The notes under the pieces: model-generated
Databases searched by the model: none
Seen by the model: only the letters and a program-made list of their open reading frames with translations
What the model was told of the DNA's origin: nothing
Part shown: positions 36,952-52,611 of the stretch, piece by piece
Layout of the letters: the number at the start of each line of letters is the position of its first letter
How positions within the stretch are numbered: the first letter of the stretch is position 1
From: a virus
Virus record (IMG/VR): IMGVR_UViG_3300020731_000015
Coordinates: 1-64,000 of that record
Direction: 5' to 3' (one strand)
Length of the DNA: 64,000 nucleotides
Made by a program: the position numbers and the translations under genes

Positions 36952-37027
36952 TCCCCCTATCTACGACTAGGGTTTTCCAAAGTAGGGGATAGTATCTACC
37001 CAGAAACTTCCCCACTTGGAGGCCGCC

Positions 37028-39343
37028 GTGTCAGAAAACATCTTCTCGCAGATTGAGTCTTGGATTCGCATCGTTAAAGATGCCAACGAGTCGCTCGCAA
37101 CGGTTATGCGACACGACCAAGACCACGACAATTGGCACAGAATGCACGGTGACGCACCTTGCACTTCAGAGGCAGACTGCGCAGCAAAGCGCGCCAAATA
37201 CGCAGAGGTGAAAGACGAGCAGGCAGTCACTAAGGGAGACTTGCCGGGCCACGAGTTCCACGGGAACCAGTACGAGGCTGGAGAGGGCGGTGGTGGAAAT
37301 CTCACCCCCTCTGGGCACCGTCCGTTGAACGAGATTGCTCGTGACATCGAAAAGGTTTGGAATGCGAACAGCAAGAATGGCGTTCACTATACCGCCAAAC
37401 CATACCTAGACGCACTAAAGCAACTCCACGACATCAAAGACAACTATATGTTTGACAGTGCCAAGAGCGTTGTCAACTACTTGCTCTCCAATATGGGAAC
37501 TTTCCGTGGTGAAGGCGCCCCCGAATTAAAAAACGAATTAAAAGCACTGGTCAAACAATACACCGCAGGTAGTGGTGGCGGGAAGACCGCTCAAATCACT
37601 AGTGACTCAAAAACCAAGCCGACCGCAAGCGGCCCAGCAGCAAACCTCGCTAGGACTCACACGAGTATCAACAACGCACTAAAGGCTGCGGTATCAGCAA
37701 ACGGCGACCTCAAAGACTTGATTAGTACTTCTAAGTCATCAAAGACACGGGGCTACTACGGAACCGTTGGTGATGACGACCTTATGTGGGGAACACACCT
37801 AGACCTCAAGGACGCCCACGAAAAGTTGGCCGCCTTGCACACACGCGCCGCAACACAGGCAACCAAAGTTGGCGACACGGAACTAGCAAACGCTCATATT
37901 CAGGCGGCCAATGCTCACCGTTTGGCTGCTGAAACGGCAAACGACCGCCGTAATCGTGGTGGCGACACCACCCCTAGCCAAGCAGAAGTCAAGGAAGCGC
38001 AAGACACCGCTAGAAAGAGCGCTCGTGCTATTTCGGCCTCGCAGAAAATCCTAGATGGCTCGAAGACCGCTCAAATCACCAGCGATTCGCAAACTAGAAG
38101 CGGAACATCCAATGTAAAGTTTGGACCATCTGAAACAAGCAAGATGCGTAGCGAGGCTGCTCGCCTTTCCAACCAAGTTCTTCACAAAGAAGACGCAGAG
38201 ACAGATGCGCACGTTGCTCACATCGAACTCGCTAATAGCCACGCTAACGCCGCTAGGAGTGCTAGGGAAGATGGGCTAAACAAATTAGCCAACGCTCACC
38301 AGAACGCTGCGAACGCTCACGCTAATGCTGCTGTTGCCACTACTTTGGGTGGCGACAACTACCCCAAACTCGCTCAAGCCGCTGGTGTTGCGACTGCTAA
38401 GGCCGACAACATCAACTACGAGCGCCCTATCAATGACGGAATTGCTGGTGGCATTATCGCTAGTGACTCGCAGACCAAGCCAAGCACAAGTGGCTTGGCT
38501 GACCGTGCTAACGACTTGGCAGAAAACGCCGAGCGAATGGAGCCAGAAGAGGTCGCCCAAGAACACGATGAAATCGCACAGGGCCACAAGGATGCCGCTA
38601 GCGATGCTAAGGCGGCCCTAGACACTTTTAAGGCAGAAAACGAAAAGAATCCAGTTGTTTCAGCAGACAAGCACATCGCTGACCTGCAAAACGAGATTGA
38701 CGCACACAAGCAAGCGGCCGAAGAGCACGAAATGGCCGCCGATAGCCAAAGAGCCTCTGCGGGAAATAACTATGAATATCAAGAAGCCGCTCAAGGTGCT
38801 ACTGACTCGGCTGCTGATGCTTCGGTTAGGGCCACTAAAGCATCGGATATTGCTAGTGGAACTATTACTAAGGCCGACCAAATGGGCCACGAGTTCCGAG
38901 GCAACCAATATTCACAAGGACAAGGTGGCGGTTCAGCACCAGCGCGCCGTGTAGATGAGGGTCGTTGGAATCCCGGCGACTGGAATCCCGGCGACCACCC
39001 GGTTTTGCCACTACACCCCGACTTCCCCGAACACCGAGTAGGAAGCCCATTCCAAACTAATCAGTGGGAGCCGCCAATACACAGAACGCCGGATGCGCCC
39101 TACACCACTAGGCCAACTATTTCACCAGACGGCCATCAAGAACCCGAAGCAGGCAATCCTTTCCGCTCTAACCAATGGCACCCAGATGGAACTCGCCTAC
39201 ACGGAATGCCAGAAATCACACAACCAGAACAAGGGCCATCTACTCATCAAGAGGGTGGCGTGGGAAACCGATTCAACCCCACTAGCCCAAGCAAAGTTCT
39301 AGATTACTTGCGCTCCAAGTATAGAGCCCGTGACAATGGCTAA
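37028..39343 (+). CDS. tagged polyprotein (W-leader, 2 tags, His/Ala helical modules)
   Basis: IFSQIESWIRIVK leader; tags at 37232 and 38870; TAQITSDS repeats. Confidence 0.75.
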   Translation: MSENIFSQIESWIRIVKDANESLATVMRHDQDHDNWHRMHGDAPCTSEADCAAKRAKYAEVKDEQAVTKGDLPGHEFHGNQYEAGEGGGGNLTPSGHRPLNEIARDIEKVWNANSKNGVHYTAKPYLDALKQLHDIKDNYMFDSAKSVVNYLLSNMGTFRGEGAPELKNELKALVKQYTAGSGGGKTAQITSDSKTKPTASGPAANLARTHTSINNALKAAVSANGDLKDLISTSKSSKTRGYYGTVGDDDLMWGTHLDLKDAHEKLAALHTRAATQATKVGDTELANAHIQAANAHRLAAETANDRRNRGGDTTPSQAEVKEAQDTARKSARAISASQKILDGSKTAQITSDSQTRSGTSNVKFGPSETSKMRSEAARLSNQVLHKEDAETDAHVAHIELANSHANAARSAREDGLNKLANAHQNAANAHANAAVATTLGGDNYPKLAQAAGVATAKADNINYERPINDGIAGGIIASDSQTKPSTSGLADRANDLAENAERMEPEEVAQEHDEIAQGHKDAASDAKAALDTFKAENEKNPVVSADKHIADLQNEIDAHKQAAEEHEMAADSQRASAGNNYEYQEAAQGATDSAADASVRATKASDIASGTITKADQMGHEFRGNQYSQGQGGGSAPARRVDEGRWNPGDWNPGDHPVLPLHPDFPEHRVGSPFQTNQWEPPIHRTPDAPYTTRPTISPDGHQEPEAGNPFRSNQWHPDGTRLHGMPEITQPEQGPSTHQEGGVGNRFNPTSPSKVLDYLRSKYRARDNG

Positions 39344-40487
39344 TGACTTCTTTGCTGAAATAGAGGCGTGGGTTCGTATTGCTAAGGCAAAGCCCGACTA
39401 CACCGAGTTGATTTCAGACCGCAAAGGCGAGCCTGACAACCAGAAGTTATACGACCAAGTAAAGGCCGATGCCCAGAAGAAGTTTGATGTCTATCCATCA
39501 GCAGTGGCAAACGGCTGGGTCGTTCAGGAATACAAGCGTCGTGGCGGAACATACTCCAAGCCAGTAGCCAAAGGCGACTTACCGGGTCACGAGTTTCGAG
39601 GAAACCAATATGCGTCGGCTGGCGGAACGGCACAAATCACTAGCGAATCACAGACCGCACCACTAAACGCTGCTAGTGCTGCGAAAGACCTCGCTACTAA
39701 GGCAAACGACCTTTACGAGAAGAACCAGATTGACAAGTTCGACAAGACTATGCCCGCTAGTGTCGCTTCCAAGATTGGAAAAGACCATTGGGATATGGCT
39801 ATCGAACACCAAAAAGAAGCAGAGCGTTTGTCAAACGAAGACGAGACTCACCTCAACTCTGAAATCGGTCACGCCGACGCTTCTGATGAGCACTACAACG
39901 CCGCTAAACGGTGGGGCGTAGTTGCCGATATGCTGAATGGCACATACGGCCCAAGTCAACTCAATGTTGATAGCGCTATCGCTGCGGCCAAAGAAGCATC
40001 TGGCTCTGCTACTGATGCCTCTTCTAACATTATCCCAGAAGCGGCTCACGAAGACACTATTGCTCAAAACGGCGGTCCAAATGTCGCTAAGCCACTATAC
40101 GGTTTTAGTGTCAAAAACGCAGGAAACATCAAGAGCGATGTCGAGGCGAGTTATATCGCTTCTGCCCTCCACGAACACCTAGTAATAGGTGCTGGACACC
40201 CAGACGACACAGAAGTTCGCACCCCAGCGGATTACAAAGTGGGTGCGAGTCAGCACTATCAGTTGGCCCAGTATTACGCAGGGAAAGCACAAAGCGGCCC
40301 ACAGAAAGCCGAATACCAAAAGGCTGCTGATGCTCACATTGCTGCGTATAAAGCCTGTGAAAAAGCGGCTAGTGCTGGAACGAAAGAGCCATCAAAGGCA
40401 AGCGTGGCTGCCGTTGCTGACACAGCGAGGGTTGCCGATAGGGCATCGTTTAATCTGGGCGAAACCTATATGAACAATAGAAAGTAA
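39336..40487 (+). CDS. tagged polyprotein (W-leader, small PSA..YKRRGG domain, tag, His/Ala modules)
   Basis: DFFAEIEAWVRIAK; tag at 39570. Confidence 0.75.
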   Translation: MANDFFAEIEAWVRIAKAKPDYTELISDRKGEPDNQKLYDQVKADAQKKFDVYPSAVANGWVVQEYKRRGGTYSKPVAKGDLPGHEFRGNQYASAGGTAQITSESQTAPLNAASAAKDLATKANDLYEKNQIDKFDKTMPASVASKIGKDHWDMAIEHQKEAERLSNEDETHLNSEIGHADASDEHYNAAKRWGVVADMLNGTYGPSQLNVDSAIAAAKEASGSATDASSNIIPEAAHEDTIAQNGGPNVAKPLYGFSVKNAGNIKSDVEASYIASALHEHLVIGAGHPDDTEVRTPADYKVGASQHYQLAQYYAGKAQSGPQKAEYQKAADAHIAAYKACEKAASAGTKEPSKASVAAVADTARVADRASFNLGETYMNNRK

Positions 40488-40491
40488 AACA

Positions 40492-41841
40492 ATGGCTAGG
40501 GATTTCTTTGCTGAAGTAGAATCGTGGATTCGTGTTGCCAAGGGCGATGTGGTTGGCCACGAGTTTCACGGGAACCAGTATCAGTCGGCTAGCGAAACGA
40601 CACAAATCACTAGTGAATCGCAGACTAGCCCCGCTAGCCGTGCTTCGGAAATCGCTGCTAGGGCTAACGCACTAGTTGATGGTATCTGGCACGACCCGGG
40701 TTCACCAGTATTACGAGATGAACACTCTGAAATAGCAGATGAACACTTTGCGGAAGCCAATAGAGTTCGTTCTACCAACCCAGCGTTGGCTGACGCCCAC
40801 GTAGAGGCCGGCAACGCTCACGAGGATGCCCACAACGCTCACTCAATGGCACACACTTACATTAGTGATGAGAACGATGACCGTGCTGAAGCCGCAACTA
40901 GTAGGGCTATTCGGGCTAGTAGGAATGTCGAAGCACTAGCCAACGGAACTGCCACCGCCCCAAGTGCTACTCCAACACCTACCCCAAACCCCAATAAGTT
41001 CTCGCACCCTTATCAGACTCAATACAGCGCGCCAAACTACCTAGCGCAAGCGGCCAAGAATGTTGCTGATAGGCATCTAGATGTTGCGGTCGCTGGCGAT
41101 AAGCCAGAAGACCTAAACGCCCTTGCTGACGAGCACCAAAAAATTGCCGAGGGTCTTCGTGATGTCGCTGACCAGAAAGCGATTGCTGCTAGAACTGCCC
41201 AGACACAGGCGGCATCATTGGGCCGCCAAGACCCTGATGAGGGTGAGAAACTCGGAACCGGGCGTGAAGCAACGGAACGACCAGCCAACGTGACTGCTGA
41301 ATCATTAGCCGACAAGTATTCCCCAGCAGGCGCATCGAACTCGGATGCGAACCGTAATCGGATTGCCGGTATGACTTCTAGCCGTTTGGAAGACCTAAAG
41401 TTGGCCTCAAACTCGATGTCCAAACTTGCTGATATGAGTCACGGCTACGCATCTAGCCGAGTTCGTGGCGAATTGGGAAGTATCCGAGAGGCTATCCAAA
41501 GCCGAATCACAGACCTCAAGAACGAGGCAAAGGCCGGTGGCTCTAAGTTCGTTCAGGGTCAAGGAAACCAGCCAACTCGCACTTCTGCTGATTACAAGAA
41601 CCTGATTTCCAAACTAACTAGTGCTTCTAAGTCCGTTTCTGAACTACGCAACGCTATTCGTAGCACGAATCTCCAAAGCACGAACCACTACTACCACTCT
41701 GGTCAATTTGCCAAAGATGCCCCAGCCGTAGCCGATAAGGTGGCGGACGCTACACAGGCCTACAACGATTTCTATCGTGGAACTGATGGCAAGGATACGG
41801 GCTACTTCGCAAATGACCGATTTAAGAAGTCGGTTGGCTGA
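40492..41841 (+). CDS. tagged putative head-cargo protein
   Basis: DFFAEVESWIRVAK|GDVVGHEFHGNQY (40540). Confidence 0.75.
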   Translation: MARDFFAEVESWIRVAKGDVVGHEFHGNQYQSASETTQITSESQTSPASRASEIAARANALVDGIWHDPGSPVLRDEHSEIADEHFAEANRVRSTNPALADAHVEAGNAHEDAHNAHSMAHTYISDENDDRAEAATSRAIRASRNVEALANGTATAPSATPTPTPNPNKFSHPYQTQYSAPNYLAQAAKNVADRHLDVAVAGDKPEDLNALADEHQKIAEGLRDVADQKAIAARTAQTQAASLGRQDPDEGEKLGTGREATERPANVTAESLADKYSPAGASNSDANRNRIAGMTSSRLEDLKLASNSMSKLADMSHGYASSRVRGELGSIREAIQSRITDLKNEAKAGGSKFVQGQGNQPTRTSADYKNLISKLTSASKSVSELRNAIRSTNLQSTNHYYHSGQFAKDAPAVADKVADATQAYNDFYRGTDGKDTGYFANDRFKKSVG

Positions 41842-41871
41842 AAAATCACAACCCTGTGAAAGAATAGAACT

Positions 41872-43092
41872 ATGGAAAACTTTGCTGCTGAAATCGAATC
41901 TTGGGTCCGAATCGCTAAGGGCGGGCCGGGCTCGGGAGATACCCCCGGTCACGAGTTCAATGGAAACCAATACACCGACGCGAGTGGTGCTATCGCGGGC
42001 ATTTCCAAACTTCGTGGGCTTTCAGGAGAACTCAAGTCAATAGTTGATGAACTAAATGGCAAGTTTTACCCACAGGGATTTACGCTGCGAGCCAAACCAG
42101 CAGATAAGTACGACAAAGACAGAATGTATGGGGAAAACTCATATAGTTCTTTTGCGCGCTATGTCACCCCAGAGAAACTAAAAGAAACACAGAGCAAACT
42201 TGAGGGGTTGGCCGACCAAGTGGATTCTCTAGTTGCTGGAGTTCGCCGTTCAGCAGCCGTTCACTCGGACACATCACCCACGATAGACAAGTTTGGTGGA
42301 GGCGAGTGGAAACTCGGACAAGACGAAGTTGGTAAGCACTTTTTAGAAGCCTCTAAGTCGCTTGAGGCTTTATCAGACAACTTGCGTGGTGCGGCATCCA
42401 TAATGAGCCACTCGGCAAACAAGGCGGTTTCAGTCAAATCACCTCGCCCAATGGCGGATGATGGCTATCCTGCTTTCGGCTCTTCCGAACCAAAAGCCTT
42501 TGACGCCGTTAAAGGCGAGGATGTTCTATCAACGAAGTTGGCGATTTCACGCTATTCGGGTCACGAAAGCAGTTTGGGAGAACAAGTTGATGCGATTTCC
42601 AAACTCTTTGACAAGTCGGAACTATCGCTTTCTCGTGCGGCTATCGCTATAGCGAAAGACCCCTCAAAAGAACCTAACGAGGCAAAGGCCGCTTCTGATT
42701 CAGCCAAGTTCGAGTCGAAGTCAAAGGAGTACACTGCTTCTGCTGATGCTATGGAAAAAGACATTGAGGCTAAGTACGATATGGTCAAAAAAGACTATGA
42801 CCTCGATGAAGACGGTAGGCCTATTCGTTATGGCCCCCAACACTCGGAAGAACTAGATGAATACGAAGAGGCAAAAGACAAGCAAGATGTCGTTCTCTCA
42901 CGCGCCAAAGTAGCGGCGGTATCGGCTAGTAATGCCTACTCTGTAATGGCTCACTTTGCTTCGCAGCGTGGCGACACCGAAGCCGCCAAGCAAGCGCAAG
43001 AAAAAGCCAGCGAAATGCTGAAAGTGGCGCGCTATAGCGAATCTCGCTGGCCAGATGCGGTCAATCATTACGATGACTACGATGGCGAATAA
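41872..43092 (+). CDS. tagged putative head-cargo protein
   Basis: NFAAEIESWVRIAK|GGPGSGDTPGHEFNGNQY (41917). Confidence 0.75.
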   Translation: MENFAAEIESWVRIAKGGPGSGDTPGHEFNGNQYTDASGAIAGISKLRGLSGELKSIVDELNGKFYPQGFTLRAKPADKYDKDRMYGENSYSSFARYVTPEKLKETQSKLEGLADQVDSLVAGVRRSAAVHSDTSPTIDKFGGGEWKLGQDEVGKHFLEASKSLEALSDNLRGAASIMSHSANKAVSVKSPRPMADDGYPAFGSSEPKAFDAVKGEDVLSTKLAISRYSGHESSLGEQVDAISKLFDKSELSLSRAAIAIAKDPSKEPNEAKAASDSAKFESKSKEYTASADAMEKDIEAKYDMVKKDYDLDEDGRPIRYGPQHSEELDEYEEAKDKQDVVLSRAKVAAVSASNAYSVMAHFASQRGDTEAAKQAQEKASEMLKVARYSESRWPDAVNHYDDYDGE

Positions 43093-43098
43093 CAACAA

Positions 43099-45396
43099 AT
43101 GTCATCTATCCAAGATGTCCGAAAGTTCCTTGTTAGAGAACGGTTTGTGGTCCTCAAGGGCGACTATGTTGGCCACCCCTTTCGTGGAAACCAATACTCC
43201 GACTTAGGCTCTGCTGAACACCTACAAGAAGCGAATAGAGCCGCTAGAGAAACGGATTCGCTCAAAAGAGAGGGCCGTCGTAGGTATGGTCGTTCTCACG
43301 GATATTCCCTTGATGGCGACCTAGCAAAAGCATCGCTCGATGCCCTTGACCACGCGGCATCAGCAAAAGCCAAAGTAGGCGTTCTTAAAACAACAATATC
43401 TGAACTAGAAGAAAAGATTAAGAGAAACGGTGGCGACCCCAAAACTCCGATAGACGGATTCCACGACTCCGTTGAGGTGCGACAACTCAAAGACAACTTA
43501 CAGCGTTCCCAAGAACAGTTAAGCCATATAACTAGCGGGAATATGAAGTTTCGTATTTCTTGGAACAAATCACTAACTAGCGAGCAAATGAGCAAGCAGG
43601 CCGCATCCGCGCTGAATCGTGGATACAAGGAAGTTCTCAACAAATTATCTTCGATGCCCGGCGTGACTATGCCGAAAGCCAAGTCGCTTCTTGACAACAA
43701 GAACAACCCTCGCCCAGAGGCTCTAAAGGTTCTTCAGAACGATGTCAAGCAGATAGACTCAATCGCCAAGAAAGATGCCAAAACAGCGCAAGACGAAAGT
43801 GCGAGCCCAGAAGATAGGTATAACGCAACTGTCGGCTTGCGAAACTCATCGAAGAACGCCCTCTCTGCCCACACCTTTCTTGAGCAAGTCTATCGGATTA
43901 GTGGAGACACTACTAACCAAGATGCTGAAGCAAAAATCGTTGAGAAAGCAAAAGCGTCTATTGGGAAAGCGGACGAACATTACACAAATAATTTCGCTCA
44001 AATAACACTTTCATACGCCAAAGAGAGCATCGATAAGGCTAGTAAGACGATTGACCTAAGTGGAGTCAACCTATTCAGCATCAGCCCGGAACAGAAACAA
44101 ACGATTTCCGATGCAAAAAGTCTTTACTCGAACGCCTACAGAATACTTAGTGATGCCAGACTAGGCAATACTGATGAGGCTAGGTTGGCAAGAGACAATT
44201 CTCAACAAGCAAACGCACTCCTAAATACCGCTAGGTCTAACGAACTAAAAGCAACCCTAGACGGGTCAATGAAGAACATAGGTAAGGCAACTGCTGATAA
44301 GAGCGCCTATGAGAACACCCAAAAGGCCGAGCGCGATTATCGCACTTTCCAATCGGCGGTTGGCGAGGCTAAGTCGAATTGGAACGGCCTATTATCTAAC
44401 TACGGTGGTGCTTCATCACCAGAGTTAAATGCAAAAGCACAGAGCAACGCTATCGGATTAGCGAACCAACTAGAACTCGTACAAAAGACCGCTGGTTTGG
44501 CTATCGGTAAGGAATACCTAAAAACGGCTAGTGACTCCCTAAAGTTCGTTCGTGAAAACCTCGGAAACACAGACCCAGCCGTGGCGGAAAAGGCCGACAA
44601 ACTTATTACCGAAGCATCAAGTGCAGCCAATACAGCAAGAGGGCTATTCTCAAAAGAATCTCGCTACTATTCATCAAGCGCACCAGCGACAAGTGGTTTG
44701 GAAAACGAGTGGAATCAGGCATCTAGGTTTGAGAAAGAATGCACCGCCTACTCCAATGCTGTTCGTGGAACATCTCTTTTGGAAAAAGGTCTAGCGGAAA
44801 CAAGGAGTATGCCCGAAAAGGTGGATATGAGTGACATCGGCCAAGATGACCCCAATAGTTATGTATCCCTAAAGGCTAAAGCCGCGGGAACTTTGGATGA
44901 CTCGTTCGGCTACCTAACGCGCGGAGTTGAAGCAATCGACAAATCAGACCTTTTCAGCAAAGACGAAAAACAAGAACTTATTGGCAAACTTAAGGACCAA
45001 GCCACCCAAGCGGGTAAGGAACTTGCCGATATCAACTTTAAGTTCTATAGAGATGGTCTTGACTCTATGGTTGTCAACGGTAGTAAGGAATTGGAAAAAT
45101 CCAAAGACACCGATGACGATAACCCTATGTATGCCTCTACTAAGGCAGAAAAACTATTGGTGCAGGCTACCTATCTTGCTGATTCTATAGAAAACAGTAT
45201 CGCTCACAAGGAACTTAGTGGTTCGCTACTAGTTGGTCACTTCCAAGACAAGACCCCGCTACAACTCAATTCCGAGCAAGTAAAGCAACTCAAGGAAACC
45301 CTCGCCAAGCATAGTGTTGCTGAAATCCAGCAAAAAGCCGATGAAGCGAAGCAGGGCCAGCGCGCTTTCTATCGCCTACGCCAATACGCCCTGTAA
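43099..45396 (+). CDS. tagged long alpha-helical protein
   Basis: VVLK|GDYVGHPFRGNQY (43156); Ala/Lys/Ser-rich helical body. Confidence 0.72.
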   Translation: MSSIQDVRKFLVRERFVVLKGDYVGHPFRGNQYSDLGSAEHLQEANRAARETDSLKREGRRRYGRSHGYSLDGDLAKASLDALDHAASAKAKVGVLKTTISELEEKIKRNGGDPKTPIDGFHDSVEVRQLKDNLQRSQEQLSHITSGNMKFRISWNKSLTSEQMSKQAASALNRGYKEVLNKLSSMPGVTMPKAKSLLDNKNNPRPEALKVLQNDVKQIDSIAKKDAKTAQDESASPEDRYNATVGLRNSSKNALSAHTFLEQVYRISGDTTNQDAEAKIVEKAKASIGKADEHYTNNFAQITLSYAKESIDKASKTIDLSGVNLFSISPEQKQTISDAKSLYSNAYRILSDARLGNTDEARLARDNSQQANALLNTARSNELKATLDGSMKNIGKATADKSAYENTQKAERDYRTFQSAVGEAKSNWNGLLSNYGGASSPELNAKAQSNAIGLANQLELVQKTAGLAIGKEYLKTASDSLKFVRENLGNTDPAVAEKADKLITEASSAANTARGLFSKESRYYSSSAPATSGLENEWNQASRFEKECTAYSNAVRGTSLLEKGLAETRSMPEKVDMSDIGQDDPNSYVSLKAKAAGTLDDSFGYLTRGVEAIDKSDLFSKDEKQELIGKLKDQATQAGKELADINFKFYRDGLDSMVVNGSKELEKSKDTDDDNPMYASTKAEKLLVQATYLADSIENSIAHKELSGSLLVGHFQDKTPLQLNSEQVKQLKETLAKHSVAEIQQKADEAKQGQRAFYRLRQYAL

Positions 45397-45444
45397 TTTA
45401 TCAACTGTGGTCTATTATCTATAACGAACGCAAGGGAGTTGCCT

Positions 45445-46866
45445 ATGTCTGATGAAATCCTCAACGCCGCATCCGAATGGATTGGCTCTGTGAACAAGGG
45501 TCTTTACGGCGCACTCTTTAACGAGTCGCTCACCTTTGGTCAGGACAATGCCGCTAAGGCCGAGTCACTCTACGCAGTTGCCCTCACTGCTGAAATGGCT
45601 GGCGACAAGGCTAAGGCGACTAACGCCCTTATGACTGCTTCGCAACTCCACCTCACTTCTGCCGACTACTACTTACGCGCCTCTTCTTACGGAACGATTG
45701 AGCGCACCCAACTACTCGCCCTCTCACAAGAACAAAATGCACTCGCACAAAAGGCGATTGAGGCCGTTCATCTTCTTGAGAACACTCCTGCTGAATCAAC
45801 TACCGATGCTGGTCTTGATGGCGTGACCGTTGATGAGGCCGACACTTACCCTATTGATACTGCGAACAACCTAGATGCCCGTGACCACGCACCCGACCTG
45901 CCAGATATGTATAAGTCAGTTGGCGGGTTTGCTGAAATCGCAGAAGACGGCGTAGAGGTTTGGAACTTCGACATCGCAAAGGGTGACACACCCGGCCACG
46001 AGTTCCGTGGAAATCAATACACCGAGGGAACTGGAAAACTATCTGGCCGTGCTGATGATGTTGCCGATAGAGCAAATGACGAGGGTGCTAGCAAGTCAAT
46101 CGCTGCGGAACACAAGAGCATCGCTGAAGGACACAAGAGTATCGCTATGGAACTCGCTGACCAAGCAGCCGAAATGCCACTAACGCAAGCGGAAAAACCA
46201 CTTGTGGCAAAAGCCGCTATTGACAACTTCAAGGCTTTTATTGCTCACGCTAACGCCGCAGACGCACACGAAGAAGCGGCAAAAGCACTTGCGAACGACC
46301 CACACTCGGAGAGTGCGCTAGATGCTGAGGAAGCAGCACAGCGCACTAGCGATGATGCCGCAACTGCGAGCGCCGAGGCTCACGGGGGAACCTCGATTGC
46401 GGCCAATGCTGAAAAGGTTGCCCCAACAAGCACTAGTGGCACGACTACCCAAATCACTAGCGAGGCTCGTAGCAACCCCTCAAGCGTTAAGTACATCAAG
46501 CCAGTCAACCTTACGGCCGCTAACACCTTGCGTGAAAGGGCCGCAAGTCTCGCTTTGGAAACAGGGCGCACCGTGCCAAACCAAGCCTTCGTGCAAGAAC
46601 ACACTCAAATCGCTAAGGAACACACGAAACTTGCAAAGGCAAATGACAAGGCTGGAAATAGCGATATTGCCGAGGCCCACCGAGATGCCGCTCACGCACA
46701 CGAGGTTGCCGCTGCTTTTACTAAGGATGCTATTGGGGTTTCACCAGACGGAACCGACCAAAAGGCTATTGATGCCGAGCAGAAGAGCCAAGAGGCCTTT
46801 ACCGCTAGTGGTGAGGCCGCTCGTCTTGAGAGAGCCAATATTTTCCCCGACACTAGTTCTTACTGA
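45445..46866 (+). CDS. tagged polyprotein with His/Ala modules
   Basis: ILNAASEWIGSVNK leader; tag at 45979. Confidence 0.72.
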   Translation: MSDEILNAASEWIGSVNKGLYGALFNESLTFGQDNAAKAESLYAVALTAEMAGDKAKATNALMTASQLHLTSADYYLRASSYGTIERTQLLALSQEQNALAQKAIEAVHLLENTPAESTTDAGLDGVTVDEADTYPIDTANNLDARDHAPDLPDMYKSVGGFAEIAEDGVEVWNFDIAKGDTPGHEFRGNQYTEGTGKLSGRADDVADRANDEGASKSIAAEHKSIAEGHKSIAMELADQAAEMPLTQAEKPLVAKAAIDNFKAFIAHANAADAHEEAAKALANDPHSESALDAEEAAQRTSDDAATASAEAHGGTSIAANAEKVAPTSTSGTTTQITSEARSNPSSVKYIKPVNLTAANTLRERAASLALETGRTVPNQAFVQEHTQIAKEHTKLAKANDKAGNSDIAEAHRDAAHAHEVAAAFTKDAIGVSPDGTDQKAIDAEQKSQEAFTASGEAARLERANIFPDTSSY

Positions 46867-46879
46867 TACTAGAAAATCC

Positions 46880-47092
46880 GTGCGAAACCCCTTTGAGATA
46901 GAGGAACTCCTAAAATCCCCGCTTTACAAGCAGGTAGTTGACGGAGTGGTGAAACAGCCTCGCTATGTGCCTTTGGCCGAGCAACGCAAACACCCACAGG
47001 ATTTCGGCTGGCTAGATGATGCCGTGCCAGATAACTATGTATTCCCAGAGGAAGACTCCGAAGACCCTATGGGCGAATCACCTCTAGGGTAG
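46880..47092 (+). CDS. small acidic protein
   Basis: GTG start; PFEIEELLK|S leader-like N-terminus. Confidence 0.45.
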   Translation: MRNPFEIEELLKSPLYKQVVDGVVKQPRYVPLAEQRKHPQDFGWLDDAVPDNYVFPEEDSEDPMGESPLG

Positions 47093-47156
47093 GTAAGCAA
47101 TAGCGATTTGGAAATCGTAGTGTAGCCTTTCTCGTAGAGCGAAAGGAACTCCTTTT

Positions 47157-49148
47157 ATGAATATTGGCGACCGATTCAAGCCGGTTTACACCCCACGCAA
47201 CCAAGCATCTATTGATGCCGAGATTGCCAGCAAGCAGATTGCTAAGACTGCTCGTAGTGAGGTTGAGGCTATGTCAGCACTAGACAACGCTAACTTCCGT
47301 CTTCGTAAGGCTACAGAGTCTTTGAGCGAAGCACAGGTGGCTTACTTTGCCGCCGTTGAGAAGTCAGCAAGCAACGCTACTGAACTCCGTGCTGCCTACA
47401 ACAACGCACTTGCCGGATTCCGTGACAGCGAGAAAATCGCCGCTGTCGCTGCTGATGAGGTTCGCAAGGCTAAGGCCGCTCTCGCAGGTCTTCGCAAGAA
47501 GGCTTCTATGGAAGATGACTATGAGGATGACTCATCAGACGATGACTCATCAGAGTACGATGAGGATGAGAAGAAGAAGTCTTTTGGTGGCTCTAGCGAC
47601 CAAGAAGATGCTGCTGATGCTATGGCTGGCGATGACCCAGAGGGCGCAGTAAAGGTTCTTGACTCACTTGCCGACACCCACGAGCGCCTCGCAGGTATGG
47701 CTCGTAAGACTGGCAATATGGATGCTCACTCGGCTCACGCTGCTGAAGCCGGTCGCATTCGCTCAAAGATTGTTTCTCTTCGTGGCAAGGCCAACAACAA
47801 GGAAGTTGTAAAGTCTGCTTCAGATTTCATCACTAAGCGTGAGTTCTCTGACACCAAGCGCGCTCAACTCGCTGATTTGCTTGAAGACTGGAAAGTTTCT
47901 AAGGCTGCAATGTTGATTGTTTGCCCATCTTGTATGGGTGACGGTGGCTCGTGCTGTGAAAACGGAATGATTAGCCCCGATGACCTTTCAGACCACGTTC
48001 AGTTGGCAGACGAGATGCCAGTTGCTATGAGTGCTTTCAGCACCTCTTCGCTTCTGACCCGTGACTTCCAAAAGTCGGCCGCTTACCAAGAGTATGTCTT
48101 GGCTAAGGGTGATGTTGATGGTCACGAGTTCCACGGAAACCAGTACACCGCAGGTGGTGGCGGAAAGACTGCTCAAGTCGCTAGCAACTCGCAGACCGCA
48201 CCAAAGACCGATGCCGAGCGTTTGGGTAATGTCCCGGGCGCTAGCAAGGCACTACTCACTCAAGATGCGATAGACAAGTTCCAAAGTGGCAAGATTGACC
48301 ACAAGGCTTTGGCAAATGCTCACGATGCTCTTGCTGCTGCCCACCTTTCTGCCGCTAAAGAGGCACGGCTAGTTGGTGACAAGAAAGGTATCGCCCTCCA
48401 CATCGCCGCCGCCAACGCTCACCTTTCTGCCGCTACTGCCCACCTAACTGCAGACGGAGAGGGCTACGAGCCCTATGTTGACAAAAACGGTAATGAGGTC
48501 AAGACCGAGGGTATGTCATACGGCGAACTAGCCAACTTGCCAACCGCTTCAGACCGACTTTCAGCAAACGCCGCTGATGCTTCTAAGGCCGCAGACAAGC
48601 ACGATGTAGAGATGGAGCAGGAAACCGCTCAAATCACTAGCGAAGCCCGCACCGTTCCAATCAAGCCCGGCCAAGCCGCACAGACCCGTGACCCCAACTG
48701 GAACCCACGCACTAGTGGCGCGTTGATAAATATGCCAAAGGCGGGAACCCAAAAGGGTTTTAACACCATCGTTGGTGGCTACGAAAAGAACATTCCAGTT
48801 CAACTTGGACTCGCTAAGCAAGCAGAGGAAGAATCAAAGAAAGCCGTTGCTGATGGCGACCTTGAGACTGCCACTGCGAAGATGGAAGAGGCTGTGAAGG
48901 CTTATGAGGCCGCCGCCGGAAACGCTCGTGGAATCTTTATGATGCACGAGAAGTTCCAAGGTCAGGTCAAGCAGGCAAACCCTGAAGACCCAAAGGTAGC
49001 CGCTTTCCGTGAACAGGCTCGTTCTATTCGTGCTAACGAAAAGGCTTCGGCACAGGAAAAGGCTGCTGAACTTGGAAAGAAGTTTAAGGAACAAGAGGCC
49101 GCCAAAATCGCCGCTGCTAAGGATGCCCAGAAAATCGTAGGCGAGTAA
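47157..49148 (+). CDS. tagged polyprotein with many hydrophobic-x-K sites, Cys cluster and His/Ala modules
   Basis: AAGGA RBS; tag at 48105; CPSC..CC motif. Confidence 0.75.
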   Translation: MNIGDRFKPVYTPRNQASIDAEIASKQIAKTARSEVEAMSALDNANFRLRKATESLSEAQVAYFAAVEKSASNATELRAAYNNALAGFRDSEKIAAVAADEVRKAKAALAGLRKKASMEDDYEDDSSDDDSSEYDEDEKKKSFGGSSDQEDAADAMAGDDPEGAVKVLDSLADTHERLAGMARKTGNMDAHSAHAAEAGRIRSKIVSLRGKANNKEVVKSASDFITKREFSDTKRAQLADLLEDWKVSKAAMLIVCPSCMGDGGSCCENGMISPDDLSDHVQLADEMPVAMSAFSTSSLLTRDFQKSAAYQEYVLAKGDVDGHEFHGNQYTAGGGGKTAQVASNSQTAPKTDAERLGNVPGASKALLTQDAIDKFQSGKIDHKALANAHDALAAAHLSAAKEARLVGDKKGIALHIAAANAHLSAATAHLTADGEGYEPYVDKNGNEVKTEGMSYGELANLPTASDRLSANAADASKAADKHDVEMEQETAQITSEARTVPIKPGQAAQTRDPNWNPRTSGALINMPKAGTQKGFNTIVGGYEKNIPVQLGLAKQAEEESKKAVADGDLETATAKMEEAVKAYEAAAGNARGIFMMHEKFQGQVKQANPEDPKVAAFREQARSIRANEKASAQEKAAELGKKFKEQEAAKIAAAKDAQKIVGE

Positions 49149-49174
49149 GAGCCTTAGTGTTCTAAGGTTTACTC

Positions 49175-51460
49175 GTGAACTACAAAGATATTCTCTCTAT
49201 CCTTAAGGCTGGCGTTGCTGGTCAATCTGGTGATAAAGACGGTCACGACTTTCGTGGCAATCAATGGACTGTTATGGGCCCTTGGGGTCAACCAGTTCCA
49301 CGACCCCGTGACCCAGCGACTAACAAGCCCCTAAAGGGCGCAGCGTTGGCTGCTGAATTGGCACGACTCTATCCGAGCCCGAACACGCCTATTCCAAACG
49401 CCCCTAAAACGACTGCCAAACCAGCCCCACCAAAGGTATCTGGCTCGACCCCTAAATCACCAAAAGCCCCCAAAGCACCAAAGGCTACGCCAGCACTCGC
49501 ACCAACCCCTACACCGGTCGCTACAACCCCTACAACGCCCCCTAAGCCCGTTGATGAAGCACCAAAGGCCGAAGCCCCAAAGGTAGAGGAAGTCAAGCCA
49601 GAAGAGCCTAAAAAGGTCGAGGATAACCGAGTTATCACGGAAGAGGGTCAGAAGTCTATTCAGGAACGAATTGCCGATGCTGAAAAGTGGGAACCCAAAA
49701 CTGATTTGGAAAAGCGGGCTTCCGAAGCCGCCTCGAAAATCGCCGCCGCAATCCTCGTTCCAAAAGAACGCCGACCCCTATTCGTAAAGAATCTCACTAC
49801 GGTTCTCACCCAGCCAAAGGCTTTTAGAGATGCCGTTGCACAAGCCAAAACCGTAGAAGTCAACGACCGTGTTAGAGACAACGCAGCGATGCTGAAAATG
49901 ATTGGCTTTACGGGTCTTCCAAAGGTCGTATCGGAAGCAGAGTTTAAGGCCACACCCGGCAAGGTCGCCTACTCTGGTCTTTCGTACACTCGGAGTTCTA
50001 CCCAAACACTTCAGCAGAAGTTAGCGACGCTTTACAACGGGGAGTTCCCACGCTACGGCGGTCCTATGTTCGGTGCGGCGTTCTACACATCCGAGAGCAA
50101 AGATGTGCCGGTTTCATACGCCCAAAAGAATGGGGCTAGTGGAACAAATACCTGTATCTTTCGCAACAAGTTAGTTGACCCCAACAATGTCTATAACGCA
50201 TCTGGCAACGGCCCAATGATTAAATTGGATGTCTTATCAGCAACGGCTAGGGAAGACCACGGCAAGTATTCGGCTATGGACCACCCTGACTACAATCTCC
50301 GAGAAATTATGTCGGATGCTGGATACACCGATGACGAAATCAACCGAATTGATGGCAAGGGAAGCCAGCAAGGTATCTTTAGTGGAGACAACAACTGTAA
50401 GAGTATCGGCCCAGCCCTAGCGGGATACGATGCGCTGAAAGATACCCACCACAACTACACAATGGTTCTAAATCGTGGGGCTATGGTCCTACCTGACACC
50501 TACGCAACCAATATCCAACATCAAGGTTCGTTTGGGCCAGAGGGAGCAGCAAATGTGTCTGACAATGTTCCTGTGGATTCGGCTTACGCAATCTCCGTGC
50601 CTACGCCAAAAGCACCCGAAGATGATGAGCAAGATGTCGCTAAAGGTGAATCTGACGGACACCCTTATCGTGGCAACCAATATGGGCCGGGCAAGAGTGA
50701 TGGCACTCCTGAAAAGCCAAAGCCACTACCCGGGTCTGAAGAAGAAACGGAAGAAGTAGTAAAGAAACTCACCGAGGATATGAAGTTGCCTCCTGCTGTT
50801 ATCCGTATGGGTATCCAAGTAGCCCGACCACTTCTCGCAGAAGCCGCTAAATACGAACCGGCTATCACCAAAGCGATTTCTCAATCCGTAAAAGAGAGTG
50901 GCGGAACTCGAAAGCGCGCTCAATCTGCCGTAAAGTCACTCTCTAGTGCTACCGAAAAGGCGGTTAGGGATACCGCCGATTCTGTCCAAAAGGGCTTGAC
51001 TGCTGAAATCACATCTAACTCCCTTTCCAAAGAAGCCGGAGAAATCCACGACCTCGTTCGCTATACGGTTATCTGGCCACAAAAGGAAATAGCAAGCGGC
51101 GCGAACAAGATGATACAGAGCCTCGCCAATAAGGGCTTCGTTCCATACAAAGACGAGAACGGCACGGAGATGGTGAAAAACTACTTCCACGATAGGCCGG
51201 GAAACTCATACCGAGGCATCAATGCCAACTTCGTTGACCCCAAGAGTGGAATGGTCTTTGAGGTTCAGTTCCACACACTCCAAAGCCTTGATACTGCTGA
51301 AAAGATGCACAAAATATATGACAGTATTCGCAAACTAGATAAGACCGACCCAGTTTACGAAAAGGGGCAGGAAAAGATGCGAGCGGGCTTCGCACAGGTA
51401 AAAATCCCACCGGGAATTGACTCGGTTGGAAATGTCTGGTTCAAGAAGGCTATAATTTAG
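49175..51460 (+). CDS. tagged polyprotein: ART-like domain plus RelA/SpoT-like (small alarmone synthetase) domain
   Basis: Tags at 49205 and 50642; GLPKVVS..FGAAFY..GYDAL..MVLNR; KSLSSATEK..HDLVRYT..YRGIN..FEVQFHT. Confidence 0.8.
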   Translation: MNYKDILSILKAGVAGQSGDKDGHDFRGNQWTVMGPWGQPVPRPRDPATNKPLKGAALAAELARLYPSPNTPIPNAPKTTAKPAPPKVSGSTPKSPKAPKAPKATPALAPTPTPVATTPTTPPKPVDEAPKAEAPKVEEVKPEEPKKVEDNRVITEEGQKSIQERIADAEKWEPKTDLEKRASEAASKIAAAILVPKERRPLFVKNLTTVLTQPKAFRDAVAQAKTVEVNDRVRDNAAMLKMIGFTGLPKVVSEAEFKATPGKVAYSGLSYTRSSTQTLQQKLATLYNGEFPRYGGPMFGAAFYTSESKDVPVSYAQKNGASGTNTCIFRNKLVDPNNVYNASGNGPMIKLDVLSATAREDHGKYSAMDHPDYNLREIMSDAGYTDDEINRIDGKGSQQGIFSGDNNCKSIGPALAGYDALKDTHHNYTMVLNRGAMVLPDTYATNIQHQGSFGPEGAANVSDNVPVDSAYAISVPTPKAPEDDEQDVAKGESDGHPYRGNQYGPGKSDGTPEKPKPLPGSEEETEEVVKKLTEDMKLPPAVIRMGIQVARPLLAEAAKYEPAITKAISQSVKESGGTRKRAQSAVKSLSSATEKAVRDTADSVQKGLTAEITSNSLSKEAGEIHDLVRYTVIWPQKEIASGANKMIQSLANKGFVPYKDENGTEMVKNYFHDRPGNSYRGINANFVDPKSGMVFEVQFHTLQSLDTAEKMHKIYDSIRKLDKTDPVYEKGQEKMRAGFAQVKIPPGIDSVGNVWFKKAII

Positions 51461-51462
51461 GT

Positions 51463-51678
51463 ATGGATTGGATTTACTACGAACGCCGATACAAAGACGG
51501 CTCTTTGGCCGCTGGGTATCGCTATGACAACGAGCATCGTGGTGAAATCCTTACGGCTAACGGCTGGCAACACTCCGACAACTTCTTCCACAAACTAATC
51601 ACGGGCGACAACGCCCTACGCCAATTAGAGGGAATCCCCGGTTGGGCCTATAACGAACAGGGAAACTTGATTCAGTAG
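51463..51678 (+). CDS. small untagged protein, candidate immunity/antitoxin for the upstream synthetase
   Basis: 71 aa, starts 2 nt after the synthetase stop, carries neither tag nor W-leader. Confidence 0.5.
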   Translation: MDWIYYERRYKDGSLAAGYRYDNEHRGEILTANGWQHSDNFFHKLITGDNALRQLEGIPGWAYNEQGNLIQ

Positions 51679-51716
51679 GGTAAAGTATCGGGAATCCTAG
51701 TTTGGAAAGGCCCGTT

Positions 51717-52604
51717 ATGACTTCGGACATCAATGCTGAAATCTTGGCGTGGGTCCGACTAGCAAAGGCTGGCGATACCAAAGGTCACGCTTTTCACGGC
51801 AATCAGTATCAAGAGGGCGAGAGTGGTGGCGAAGCCCCAGCCCGACAGGTAGATTCGAGTCGCTATCAGGCAAATGGTCGCTACGGAACTGCTGAAACCA
51901 CCGAATCAATCAAGCCGACAGTTGCCGAAAAGCCAAAGCCCGCCGAACTTCCAAACCACGACACCCGCATAAAGAGCGACCCAGCCGATACCTCTCCAAA
52001 AGGCATAAAGAATTGGGCTCGAGAAATCCACTTCGCGCTCACTCGTGGCGAGCAACCCATTATCTCCGCCCAGCACTTCCCCGCCTTGATTGCTGAAATG
52101 GCCCGAACGAACTCAAAGGGCAACGACATAACCAACATCCGTATTGACGGAACTCGCCTTATGGGATTAGACGGAAAGGGCTACTCTCGCAGCAAAATGC
52201 CCCAAATTGACGAGAGCGAACGCCCCCAATTCCTAAAGGATATTGAGAAGTCAGACGGAATCACCGTAAAGCCAATGTCCGTTGACCCCACGACCCTAAA
52301 GCCAATCCAAAAGGAAATCAACGGCGACAAGTCTGGGGCGATTATGAAGAAGAACCCAGATGGTATTCCCGACAATATGCGAATCTTGGTTTCCAAAGAT
52401 GGTTATGTAGTGGATGGACACCACACTTGGGCCGCTGCCGTTGCGCTGAAATTGGCAGGAAAGTCGGCTCAATTCCCGGTCTATCAACTCTCCTGTGACT
52501 GGAAGAAAGCGATGGATGTCGGCCTCGCTTGGGATAAGGAACACAATGTTCCCCTACAAGGATTTGATACCAAGCCACCGGTTTTATCAAAATCCGTGAA
52601 ATAA
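51717..52604 (+). CDS. tagged ParB/Srx-fold protein
   Basis: INAEILAWVRLAK leader; tag at 51765; LKPIQKEI..ILVSKDGYVVDGHHTWAA. Confidence 0.78.
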   Translation: MTSDINAEILAWVRLAKAGDTKGHAFHGNQYQEGESGGEAPARQVDSSRYQANGRYGTAETTESIKPTVAEKPKPAELPNHDTRIKSDPADTSPKGIKNWAREIHFALTRGEQPIISAQHFPALIAEMARTNSKGNDITNIRIDGTRLMGLDGKGYSRSKMPQIDESERPQFLKDIEKSDGITVKPMSVDPTTLKPIQKEINGDKSGAIMKKNPDGIPDNMRILVSKDGYVVDGHHTWAAAVALKLAGKSAQFPVYQLSCDWKKAMDVGLAWDKEHNVPLQGFDTKPPVLSKSVK

Positions 52605-52611
52605 TAGGATT

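What the first reader, a model, noticed from the sequence alone, without database searches (positions are those of the whole stretch)
37028..51770. Second shared signal: N-terminal amphipathic W-leader (F-x-A-E-I-E-x-W-V-R-I-A-K)
Seen: IFSQIESWIRIVK (37028), DFFAEIEAWVRIAK (39336), DFFAEVESWIRVAK (40492), NFAAEIESWVRIAK (41872), ILNAASEWIGSVNK (45445), INAEILAWVRLAK (51717), and IEQAIALWLRVIK at 3074. An internal LADLLEDWKVSK occurs in 47157. The leader occurs once per ORF and ends in the putative cleavage K, whereas the GH tag can repeat. Inference: a two-tier code, with a removable leader recruiting the precursor to the prohead/scaffold and the retained GH tag acting after maturation. A second leader type (SDFSRGNLL in 52612, SAFSTSSLL within 47157) may be an alternative.
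Basis: partly seen in the sequence, partly recalled or inferred. Interest (0 to 1): 0.85.

Follow-up and report, generated by a model that had tools for sequence, protein, structure and literature searches.

The report
Shared leader peptide on phage cargo
Seven otherwise unrelated proteins encoded next to the head-assembly genes of an uncultured lake phage begin with the same 15-residue helix, conserved across dozens of related phages, which most likely labels them for loading into the capsid, although no experiment has tested this.

Summary
A scoring matrix built only from 35 leaders of other phages finds six sites in this 75-kb genome, scoring 16-35 bits against a shuffle maximum of 15.6. 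All six lie 2-4 residues after a start codon of a GH-tagged gene. The site at 45445 is a divergent seventh. The internal LADLLEDWKVSK is not supported.

I found 53 distinct N-terminal leaders in related uncultured freshwater phages, which probably infect Actinobacteria. The consensus is [LIF]-[DN]-[AS]-E-I-x-x-W-[LVI]-x-x-A-K-G, with W at residue 10-13.

Selection acts on the peptide, not the DNA. The leader sits on unrelated cargo. It is absent when the same module lies inside a polyprotein, and it can be exchanged for a second leader class on orthologous cargo. AlphaFold2 places it on a disordered tether.

The best reading is a capsid-targeting or propeptide label, working like the T4 capsid-targeting sequence or the P1 DarB signal but not homologous to either. 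Its receptor and its removal after K are inferred, not shown.

The "two-tier code" is only partly supported. Of tagged proteins, 71% lack this leader. Of leader proteins, 28% lack the tag. Six of 30 leaders in database proteins are internal.

This scan had already seen the GH tag on other DNA (e1-5889517), but not the W-leader.

The parts
3074..3121 (+). W-leader METIEQAIALWLRVIK of the 166-aa ORF 3074-3574, followed directly by a GH tag
   Evidence: 19.5 bits with the matrix built from other phages; translation checked
37028..37078 (+). W-leader (V)SENIFSQIESWIRIVK of the ~771-aa ORF ending at 39343. The GTG start has GGAGG 6 nt upstream. The first GH tag lies about 60 residues downstream.
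   Evidence: 16.2 bits
39336..39386 (+). W-leader MANDFFAEIEAWVRIAK of the ORF ending at 40487. It is followed by a DUF5872-like segment and then a GH tag at 39585.
   Evidence: 29.5 bits; Pfam DUF5872 at residues 35-78
40492..40542 (+). W-leader MARDFFAEVESWIRVAK of the 449-aa ORF 40492-41841, followed directly by a GH tag
   Evidence: 28.3 bits
41872..41919 (+). W-leader MENFAAEIESWVRIAK of the 406-aa ORF 41872-43092, followed by G-G-P-G-S-G and then a GH tag
   Evidence: 27.2 bits
45445..45498 (+). Divergent W-leader MSDEILNAASEWIGSVNK of the ORF ending at 46866
   Evidence: Under 5 bits with the cross-validated matrix. The orthologue in L003 keeps M-T-D-N-V-L-N-A-A-T-E-W-I. AGGGAG lies upstream of the ATG.
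51717..51767 (+). W-leader MTSDINAEILAWVRLAK of the 295-aa ParB/Srx-like cargo protein 51717-52604
   Evidence: 34.8 bits. Eight orthologues keep the leader and two carry the class-2 leader instead. AlphaFold2 models a helix at residues 4-18 on a disordered tether.
52612..52683 (+). Class-2 leader MTNASDFSRGNLLGPDGVYREFIK of the 135-aa ORF 52612-53019, followed by a GH tag
   Evidence: About 25 related N-termini in other phages
33299..34912 (+). Portal protein (Mu type)
   Evidence: Pfam PF06074, E = 8e-35; matches to PDB portal chains, E = 3e-76
35047..36951 (+). 634-aa prohead protease precursor. It has a clade-specific N-terminal extension, a poly-Ser tract and a C-terminal XkdF-type (S78_2) protease domain.
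   Evidence: PF14550 at residues 496-614; alignment A3
37016..57256 (+). Cargo gene block of eleven ORFs carrying 15 of the genome's 19 GH tags. It includes a MuF-like module (49175-51460) and a 1415-aa polyvalent protein with a weak match to an ADP-ribosyltransferase domain (53009-57256).
63520..64000 (+). Start of the 265-aa scaffold-like protein, which runs to 64317 in the genome. A 165-aa protein (64317-64814) and the major capsid protein (64834-65835) follow, both outside the window.
   Evidence: phrog_13547, phrog_673 and phrog_1005

Best explanation
The W-leader is a modular address peptide for virion cargo. It is a short amphipathic helix at the extreme N-terminus of proteins that are co-assembled into the procapsid of this freshwater phage, which probably infects Actinobacteria.

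The likely mechanism is as follows. The whole precursor, a single module or a polyprotein, is recruited through this helix to a component of the assembling head. The receptor is unknown; the scaffold, the capsid protein, the portal and the protease extension all remain candidates. The leader is probably then cut off after its A-K, before G, A, D or S, by the XkdF-type prohead protease. The GH tags mark the individual modules.

Shown here:
- the peptide, its position and its conservation
- that it is modular and independent of the cargo domain
- that it is confined to the cargo-bearing phage clade

Inferred only:
- that these proteins are packaged
- that the leader binds a head component
- that it is removed
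For: 1. Statistics and position. Six sites score above every shuffle, all 2-4 residues after a start codon. Relatives hold 53 distinct N-terminal leaders. In 43 of the 45 aligned in A4, W sits at residue 10-13.
2. Conservation. E(-4), I(-3), W, A(+4), K(+5) and G(+6) persist in phages whose protease is only 43-55% identical.
3. Peptide-level selection. Only 44% of identical residues use the same codon.
4. Specificity. A strict DNA pattern run over 2.9 million viral contigs gave 23 stretches, about 20 of them in phages with GH tags. The sister clade (L034-L037) and Arthrobacter phage Edmundo have a related protease, scaffold and capsid protein but no cargo block, no tags and no leaders.
5. One leader per polypeptide. 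The MuF-like module and the phrog_2859 (ParB/Srx-like) module occur as leader-tag-module ORFs in some phages and as internal tag-module units without a leader in polyproteins of others.
6. Interchangeable leaders. Orthologues of the 51717 protein carry either the W-leader or the class-2 leader.
7. Flexible tether. AlphaFold2 gives a helix at 4-18, disorder at 17-83 and a confident domain at 88-289.
8. Internal copies. Five of the six internal leaders in database proteins follow a K-S junction (hydrophobic-x-K-S in four of them), and the sixth follows a Met. Each internal leader is therefore bounded by junction-like motifs on both sides.
9. Precedent. The first 10 residues of T4 IPIII target proteins into the head and are removed by gp21 (PMC9026906). 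The N-terminal 30 residues of P1 DarB are sufficient to direct a reporter to the capsid (PMC9024508).
Against: - No proteomic, structural or genetic data exist for any member, and no cultured relative carries the leader.
- The leader cannot be the only loading signal. Of 134 tagged ORFs, 95 lack it, including the large proteins at 47157, 53009 and 28-3066 in this window.
- Internal copies (6 of 30) show that a free N-terminus is not strictly needed.
- K at the last position occurs in about two thirds of leaders (27 of 42 unique leaders; 31 of the 45 aligned). The cut site is therefore not a firm rule.
- The cleavage specificity of XkdF-type proteases is not known to me.
Confidence: 0.5

Rival explanations
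1. The leader has no targeting role. It is the N-terminal form of the junction that precedes every GH tag, providing the residues upstream of the cut so that the protease can recognise and trim the first tag of a polypeptide. Loading would then be done by the GH tag or by something else.
For: The leader ends in hydrophobic-A-K-G, the same pattern that precedes internal tags (hydrophobic-x-K-G-D). Of the leader ORFs, 39 of 54 carry a tag, often directly after the leader. Tagged proteins without a leader are common.
Against: Upstream of internal tags only the hydrophobic-x-K pattern is conserved, whereas the leader keeps E-I-x-x-W over 10 more residues in distant phages. Fifteen leader ORFs have no canonical tag, and in several others the first tag lies 60-170 residues downstream.
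Confidence: 0.2
2. The leader is retained in the mature protein and acts at or after ejection. It could be an amphipathic helix that leads the cargo out through the portal and tail, or takes it to the host membrane or a host target.
For: It has the amphipathic-helix pattern: hydrophobic positions -7, -3, 0, +1 and +4, with a mean helical moment of 0.38 against 0.26 for shuffled residues. It sits on a long disordered tether. It resembles a portal helix weakly.
Against: The helical moment is below the 95th percentile of shuffles, 0.49. The net charge is slightly negative and there is no long hydrophobic core, which is unlike membrane-active peptides. The portal resemblance is at chance level. 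Internal copies exist.
Confidence: 0.12
3. The leader is a docking helix for a phage-encoded hub that is specific to this clade, such as the N-terminal extension of the protease precursor. Cargo would then ride into the head on the protease. This is a special case of targeting, with a named receptor.
For: The protease extension (residues 1-470) occurs in the same clade as the leaders and tags and is absent from the sister clade. The extension itself contains an invariant helix-A-K-G-...-H-P-F element.
Against: Co-occurrence within one clade is weak evidence. The capsid protein (75-94% identical) and the scaffold (60-88%) are more conserved than the protease (43-78%), which fits the leader's conservation better.
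Confidence: 0.1
4. The similarity is inherited from gene duplication or recombination at gene starts and has no function of its own.
For: Several cargo genes in the block share other motifs and may be partly paralogous (note e1-6080120).
Against: The sequences downstream of the leader are unrelated: a zinc ribbon, DUF5872, a MuF-like module, a ParB-like module and others. The leader is conserved across phages at protein level while its codons vary. It is lost exactly when a module becomes internal.
Confidence: 0.03

Closest known systems
Capsid targeting sequence (CTS) of phage T4 internal proteins IPI-III and Alt, removed by the prohead protease gp21 (Mullaney and Black 1996, as reviewed in PMC9026906)
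   Same: A short N-terminal peptide shared by otherwise unrelated head-internal proteins. It ends at a conserved junction and the cargo set varies between related phages. T4 Alt is an ADP-ribosyltransferase, and the 1415-aa polyvalent protein here has a below-threshold match to an ADP-ribosyltransferase domain.
   Different: There is no sequence similarity. The leader here is about 15 residues with an invariant W, and ends in A-K-G rather than L/I-x-E. The protease is XkdF/S78_2-type, not gp21 (S77), and the phage is not T4-like. A second motif, the 16-residue GH tag, heads each module. Some leaders are internal. Nothing has been tested experimentally.
N-terminal packaging signal of phage P1 DarB (first 30 residues sufficient for capsid localisation; PMC9024508)
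   Same: An N-terminal signal on a large anti-defence-type cargo protein. P1's head also holds DdrB, which has a ParB-like domain according to PMC5512222. The 51717 cargo here has a weak ParB-N/Srx fold match.
   Different: I know of no shared motif. In P1 the signal is described for one protein and depends on helper proteins (Hdf, DarA, DdrA, Ulx). Here one leader is reused on many proteins.
Phage polyvalent proteins (Iyer, Burroughs, Anand, de Souza, Aravind 2017; PMC5512222)
   Same: Long multi-domain effector proteins encoded beside portal and head genes and predicted to be packaged. The domain types include ART, ParB-like, metallopeptidase and MuF.
   Different: A term search of that paper found no occurrence of "linker" and no mention of a shared N-terminal leader or junction tag among the passages returned. 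It proposes processing by the proteins' own metallopeptidase domains.
Encapsulin cargo-loading peptides
   Same: A short peptide on a flexible tether that loads diverse cargo into an HK97-fold shell (from my own knowledge).
   Different: Those peptides are usually C-terminal, Gly/Ser-rich and extended rather than helical. They bind the shell protein directly and are not removed. There is no sequence likeness.

Membership tests
T4-type capsid targeting sequence | Short peptide at the extreme N-terminus of otherwise unrelated head-internal proteins | tested here: met
   Position and unrelated downstream domains. That these proteins sit inside the head is inferred only.
T4-type capsid targeting sequence | Ends in the gp21 cleavage motif (L/I-x-E) and resembles the IPIII propeptide | tested here: not met
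   The leader ends in A-K-G and has no L/I-x-E. Its consensus [LIF]-[DN]-[AS]-E-I-x-x-W-[LVI]-x-x-A-K-G is unlike the T4 propeptide.
T4-type capsid targeting sequence | Works with a T4-type head core (gp21 protease, gp22 scaffold) | tested here: not met
   The protease domain matches PF14550 (XkdF, S78_2). The portal is Mu-type and the capsid protein is phrog_1005.
T4-type capsid targeting sequence | Sufficient to load a foreign protein into the capsid, and removed during maturation | not testable with these tools
   This needs reporter fusions and virion proteomics.
P1 DarB-type packaging signal | Sequence relation to the DarB N-terminus and dependence on Hdf/DarA helper proteins | not tested
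   No homologue of the Dar proteins turned up in the Pfam or PHROG scans of this block. No dedicated search was made.
Phage polyvalent proteins | Several unrelated effector domains in one polypeptide, encoded beside portal and head genes | tested here: met
   The 1415-aa ORF 53009-57256 has a weak, below-threshold Pfam match to an ADP-ribosyltransferase domain (22.3 bits against a cutoff of 23.4) and two matches to phrog_2859, with three GH tags. Database relatives reach 3461 aa with up to 9 tags. This feature applies to the cargo proteins, not to the leader.
Sec or Tat signal peptide | Basic N-region followed by a hydrophobic core of 10 or more residues, or a twin-arginine motif | tested here: not met
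   The leader has a net charge of about -0.8, alternating polar and hydrophobic residues, no long hydrophobic run and no R-R motif.
Encapsulin cargo-loading peptide | C-terminal (rarely N-terminal) Gly/Ser-rich extended peptide of the type G-S-L-x-I-G-S-L-K-G | tested here: not met
   The leader is N-terminal, predicted helical and has a different consensus. The encapsulin motif is recalled from memory.

The most novel reading that the evidence does not exclude
These uncultured freshwater actinophages may use a compact protein-packaging grammar not described for any phage. In this reading, interchangeable N-terminal leader helices (the W class, the N-P-F-S-T-E-x-L-L class and a third class) address a whole precursor to the procapsid. 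A 16-residue GH tag heads each module, and short K-G or K-S junctions allow modules and leaders to be cut apart. Arbitrary enzymes can then be shuffled between single genes and polyproteins and still be delivered with the DNA. The system would be a natural, programmable cargo-loading scheme in an HK97-fold capsid with an XkdF-type protease, evolved independently of the T4 CTS.
Probability: 0.35. Interest if true: 0.75.

Novelty: new variant of a known kind. Interest (0 to 1): 0.6.

Why it matters
If the leader is a loading signal, it extends the capsid-targeting principle in three ways. So far that principle has been shown only for T4 and P1. This case would add an unrelated and environmentally abundant phage lineage with a different protease family.

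It also explains how a phage can carry more than 7,000 residues' worth of variable effector genes as exchangeable cassettes. It gives a short, defined peptide that could be tested for loading foreign proteins into capsids.

Finally, it offers a simple sequence handle (leader plus tag) for finding injected effectors, likely anti-defence or host-takeover enzymes, in metagenomes. The profile search found over a thousand protein clusters carrying the tag, and 26 of the best 150 also carry the leader.

Tried and rejected
- Co-folding of the leader segment (alignment A4) with the capsid protein (A1) and the scaffold (A2) gave no answer: score 0.00, below the mark, and the controls were not run. This is no evidence either way. 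Only one job was available, so the portal, the protease and oligomeric states were not tried.
- AlphaFold2 of the whole protease precursor gave a mean pLDDT of 41, unusable for defining a receptor domain.
- Searches of cultured phage genomes for the block, the leader-plus-tag segment or a multi-tag protein found nothing beyond DUF5872 or the ART-like domain.
- A PDB sequence search with the leader-plus-tag profile gave only a chance match to Kaede.
- A literature search for the tag letters gave nothing relevant. The polyvalent-protein paper does not describe the leader or the tag. I found no paper on HK97 or XkdF cleavage specificity in the library. My recollection that HK97 gp4 cuts after a Lys is therefore unverified.
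- I tested whether the leader copies a piece of a head protein, an idea from earlier scan notes on T4-like phages. The scaffold, capsid protein, protease and MuF-like protein score 2 bits or less. The portal helix 348-361 scores 8.9 bits against a null maximum of 8.7, and shares 7 of 13 identities. Chance gives 0.3 such windows per proteome, and an unrelated protein scores the same. I rejected this as evidence and kept it only as a note.
- I tested for general enrichment of hydrophobic-x-K-[GSA] in head and cargo proteins. It is not significant overall (p = 0.13), though 8 of the scaffold's 15 lysines lie in that context.
- I considered a DNA-level repeat or recombination site at gene starts. 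I rejected it because codons differ at conserved residues.


Full report
**Context**

The window is the first 64 kb of a single 75,270-bp contig. It is a tailed-phage genome. The identified genes are:
- terminase large subunit, 10357-11307
- WhiB-type regulator, 26631-27071 (PF02467, 52.8 bits)
- GH25 lysin, 27104-28186
- SSB
- Mu-type portal, 33299-34912
- a 634-aa protein whose C-terminal 140 residues are an XkdF-type (Peptidase_S78_2) prohead protease, 35047-36951
- a scaffold-like protein (63520-64317), a 165-aa protein and the major capsid protein (64834-65835) further on

Three results point to a freshwater phage of Actinobacteria. WhiB is present. The nearest cultured relatives of the protease domain are Arthrobacter and Microbacterium phages. 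One homologue comes from a record labelled Micrococcales. The DNA of 37016-43092 is held by freshwater and lake metagenomes from 19 studies, and partly by six lake metatranscriptomes.

Eleven ORFs lie between the protease and the methylase genes. Together with 28-3066 and 3074-3574 they carry 19 copies of the motif hydrophobic-x-K-G-D/E-x-x-G-H-x-F-x-G-N-Q-Y/W, the GH tag. All copies are on the + strand.

**The observation**

For an unbiased test I built a 14-column matrix from 35 distinct leaders of other phages, leaving out this phage and its near-identical contigs, and scanned all six frames of the genome.

Six sites score 16.2-34.8 bits. The best of 100 shuffled genomes scored 15.6 bits, with 0.14 hits of 10 bits or more per shuffle. 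All six begin 2-4 residues after a start codon. Several of these starts have a Shine-Dalgarno-like motif upstream, for example GGAGG before the GTG at 37028.

The site at 45445 is a divergent member that only its orthologues reveal. The internal LADLLEDWKVSK in the 47157 ORF is not supported.

**Spread and anatomy**

I fetched loci around relatives of the protease, of the kinase-like start of the 1415-aa protein and of the capsid protein. They yielded 53 distinct N-terminal leaders. The consensus is [LIF]-[DN]-[AS]-E-I-x-x-W-[LVI]-x-x-A-K-G. Among the 42 unique leaders counted:
- W is invariant
- E(-4) and I(-3) occur in 36 of 42
- A(+4) occurs in 35 of 42
- K(+5) occurs in 27 of 42
- G(+6) occurs in 22 of 42

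W lies at residue 10-13 in 43 of the 45 sequences aligned in A4. Residue 2 is usually S, T, A or P.

The hydrophobic positions (-7, -3, 0, +1, +4) fall on one face of a helix. The mean helical moment is 0.38, against 0.26 for shuffled residues, so the effect is modest.

The conserved residues persist in phages whose protease is only 43-55% identical. At identical residues only 44% of codons agree. Selection therefore acts on the peptide and not on a DNA repeat.

A strict back-translated pattern was run over 2.9 million viral contigs. It returned 23 stretches, about 20 of them in phages that carry GH tags in the stretch fetched.

A sister clade has a related protease domain, scaffold (about 37% identical) and capsid protein (about 60% identical). 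So does Arthrobacter phage Edmundo. Neither has a cargo block, tags, leaders or the long N-terminal extension of the protease.

**What the comparisons say about function**

1. The leader belongs to the polypeptide, not the module. I split tagged proteins at their tags and clustered the modules. The MuF-like module is internal in ORF 49175 here but forms a leader-tag-module ORF in L043 and L044. The phrog_2859 module is a leader ORF at 51717 and an internal module of the 1415-aa protein in this same genome.
2. Leader classes are interchangeable. Eight orthologues of the 51717 protein carry the W-leader. Two carry the second class, M-x-D-F-[ST]-T-x-x-L-L. That class has about 25 members in the relatives. 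A third pattern occurs at 43099 and 49175: a hydrophobic heptad-like peptide ending in L-K-G.
3. Leader and tag are separable. Among distinct ORFs in the loci, 39 have both, 15 have the leader only and 95 have the tag only.
4. The leader sits on a tether. AlphaFold2 of the 295-aa protein with 20 homologues gives three regions:
   - a helix at residues 4-18, at low confidence
   - disorder from 17 to 83, which includes the tag
   - a confident domain from 88 to 289, with a weak ParB-N/sulfiredoxin fold match
5. The tag is widespread. A profile of leader plus tag, searched against 1.84 billion representative proteins, found 1115 proteins at E of 0.001 or better. Many are polyproteins, with up to 9 tags and up to 3461 residues.
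6. Internal leaders have junctions on both sides. In the best 150 of those proteins there are 30 leaders: 24 at the N-terminus and 6 internal. Five of the six internal ones directly follow a K-S junction (hydrophobic-x-K-S in four of them), and the sixth follows a Met. An internal leader is thus bounded by a K-S junction upstream and, in five of the six, by A-K-G downstream.
7. The tag logo is well defined. From 547 tags it reads hydrophobic-x-K(67%)-G(98%)-D(87%)-x-x-G-H-x-F-[HR]-G-N-Q-[WY]-T.

**Most likely mechanism**

These features are what one expects of a cargo-address propeptide. The peptide is short, conserved and independent of the cargo domain. It lies at the start of precursors encoded beside the portal and protease, is used once per precursor, can be swapped between classes, sits on a flexible tether and ends at a conserved junction.

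Two precedents are experimentally established:
- The first 10 residues of T4 IPIII target proteins to the scaffolding core and are removed by gp21 (PMC9026906).
- The N-terminal 30 residues of P1 DarB suffice to send a reporter into the capsid (PMC9024508).

I therefore commit to this reading at about 0.5: the leader recruits the precursor into the procapsid and is probably cut off after K. The receptor is open.

Conservation ranks the candidates as follows: capsid protein 75-94% identical, scaffold 60-88%, protease 43-78%. This favours the capsid protein or the scaffold. The clade-specific protease extension is the candidate suggested by co-occurrence.

Removal after K is inferred from four observations:
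- the A-K-G ending of the leader
- the K-S junction before internal leaders
- eight hydrophobic-x-K-[SA] sites among the scaffold's 15 lysines
- an invariant I-x-K directly before the protease domain

It is weakened by two others:
- K is absent from about a third of leaders and tags
- the motif is not enriched in the head and cargo set overall (p = 0.13)

The zincin-type peptidase that earlier notes place in the 1415-aa protein is an alternative processing enzyme, as proposed for polyvalent proteins (PMC5512222).

The "two-tier code" is partly supported. Two separable signals with different grammar do exist. But the W-leader is one of at least three N-terminal classes. Most tagged proteins lack it, some leader proteins lack the tag, and neither removal nor binding has been shown.

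**Comparison with known systems, and novelty**

The leader works like the T4 CTS but is not a member of that family. There is no sequence likeness, the junction differs, the protease family differs and the phage type differs. I found no description of it. The cultured-phage and PDB searches were empty, and neither the leader nor the tag turned up in the polyvalent-protein paper.

Within this scan, the GH tag had already been followed up on another genome (e1-5889517), and CTS-like leaders have been reported repeatedly in T4-like phages. The W-leader had been noted only on this same genome. I class it as a new variant of a known kind.

**Limits**

Everything rests on sequence comparison of uncultured phages. 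The single co-folding job gave no answer, and the protease precursor could not be modelled.

Noticed in passing
window 35335-35418 (protease precursor residues 97-124): An invariant stretch in all 14 relatives, A-E-Q-R-L-I-S-R-N-I-A-K-G-L-A-S-V-x-H-P-F-x-K-S-x-N, looks like a degenerate copy of "helix + A-K-G + H-x-F". The protease precursor may itself carry a leader/tag-like element. An invariant I-x-K496 sits directly before the XkdF domain.
   Followed up: partly
window 35640-35890 (protease precursor residues about 200-280): A tract of roughly 80 residues, almost entirely Ser, links the N-terminal extension to the rest of the precursor. It is present but of variable length in all relatives.
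   Followed up: no
window 34340-34381 (portal residues 348-361): The portal helix FMAAVESWVRLIAE, just after the G-S-F-S-L-G-T-S-K loop, resembles the leaders. It has 7 of 13 identities and is the best non-leader matrix score in the genome. The score is at the level of chance: 8.9 bits against a null maximum of 8.7, with 0.3 such windows expected per proteome.
   Followed up: yes
L040 6043-11871 (genome 69442-75270), continuing into window 1-3066: A 1943-codon collagen-repeat ORF (PF01391, 13 stretches) runs off the contig end in frame with ORF 28-3066, which holds three GH tags. If the genome is circular, this is a protein of about 2955 aa made of a collagen-like region and tagged C-terminal modules.
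   Followed up: partly
proteins P0162-P0170 (homologues of window 51717-52601): More distant homologues join their domains with a different short motif, H-D-Q-x-[ST]-H-G-x-W-A, instead of the GH tag. This may be an analogous junction label in another phage lineage.
   Followed up: no
L019 and L008 (relatives; protease 46-51% identical): In these phages most junctions read K-G-G-P-G-S-G without G-H-x-F-x-G-N-Q, yet the W-leader is kept. The leader therefore outlives the canonical tag.
   Followed up: partly
window 63520-63610 (scaffold residues 1-30): The scaffold's N-terminus, K-E-T-S-G-V-D-x-P-A-H-L-x-x-G-W-x-V-M-K-S, is invariant across both clades. It resembles the V-E-V-D-x-P-A end of the protease domain, as if it were a remnant of a protease-scaffold fusion.
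   Followed up: no
window 48030-48119 (47157 ORF residues 292-321): An internal class-2-like peptide, M-S-A-F-S-T-S-S-L-L...V-L-A-K-G-D, lies directly before the only GH tag of this ORF and is preceded by a Met. It looks like the fossil start of a gene that became fused.
   Followed up: no
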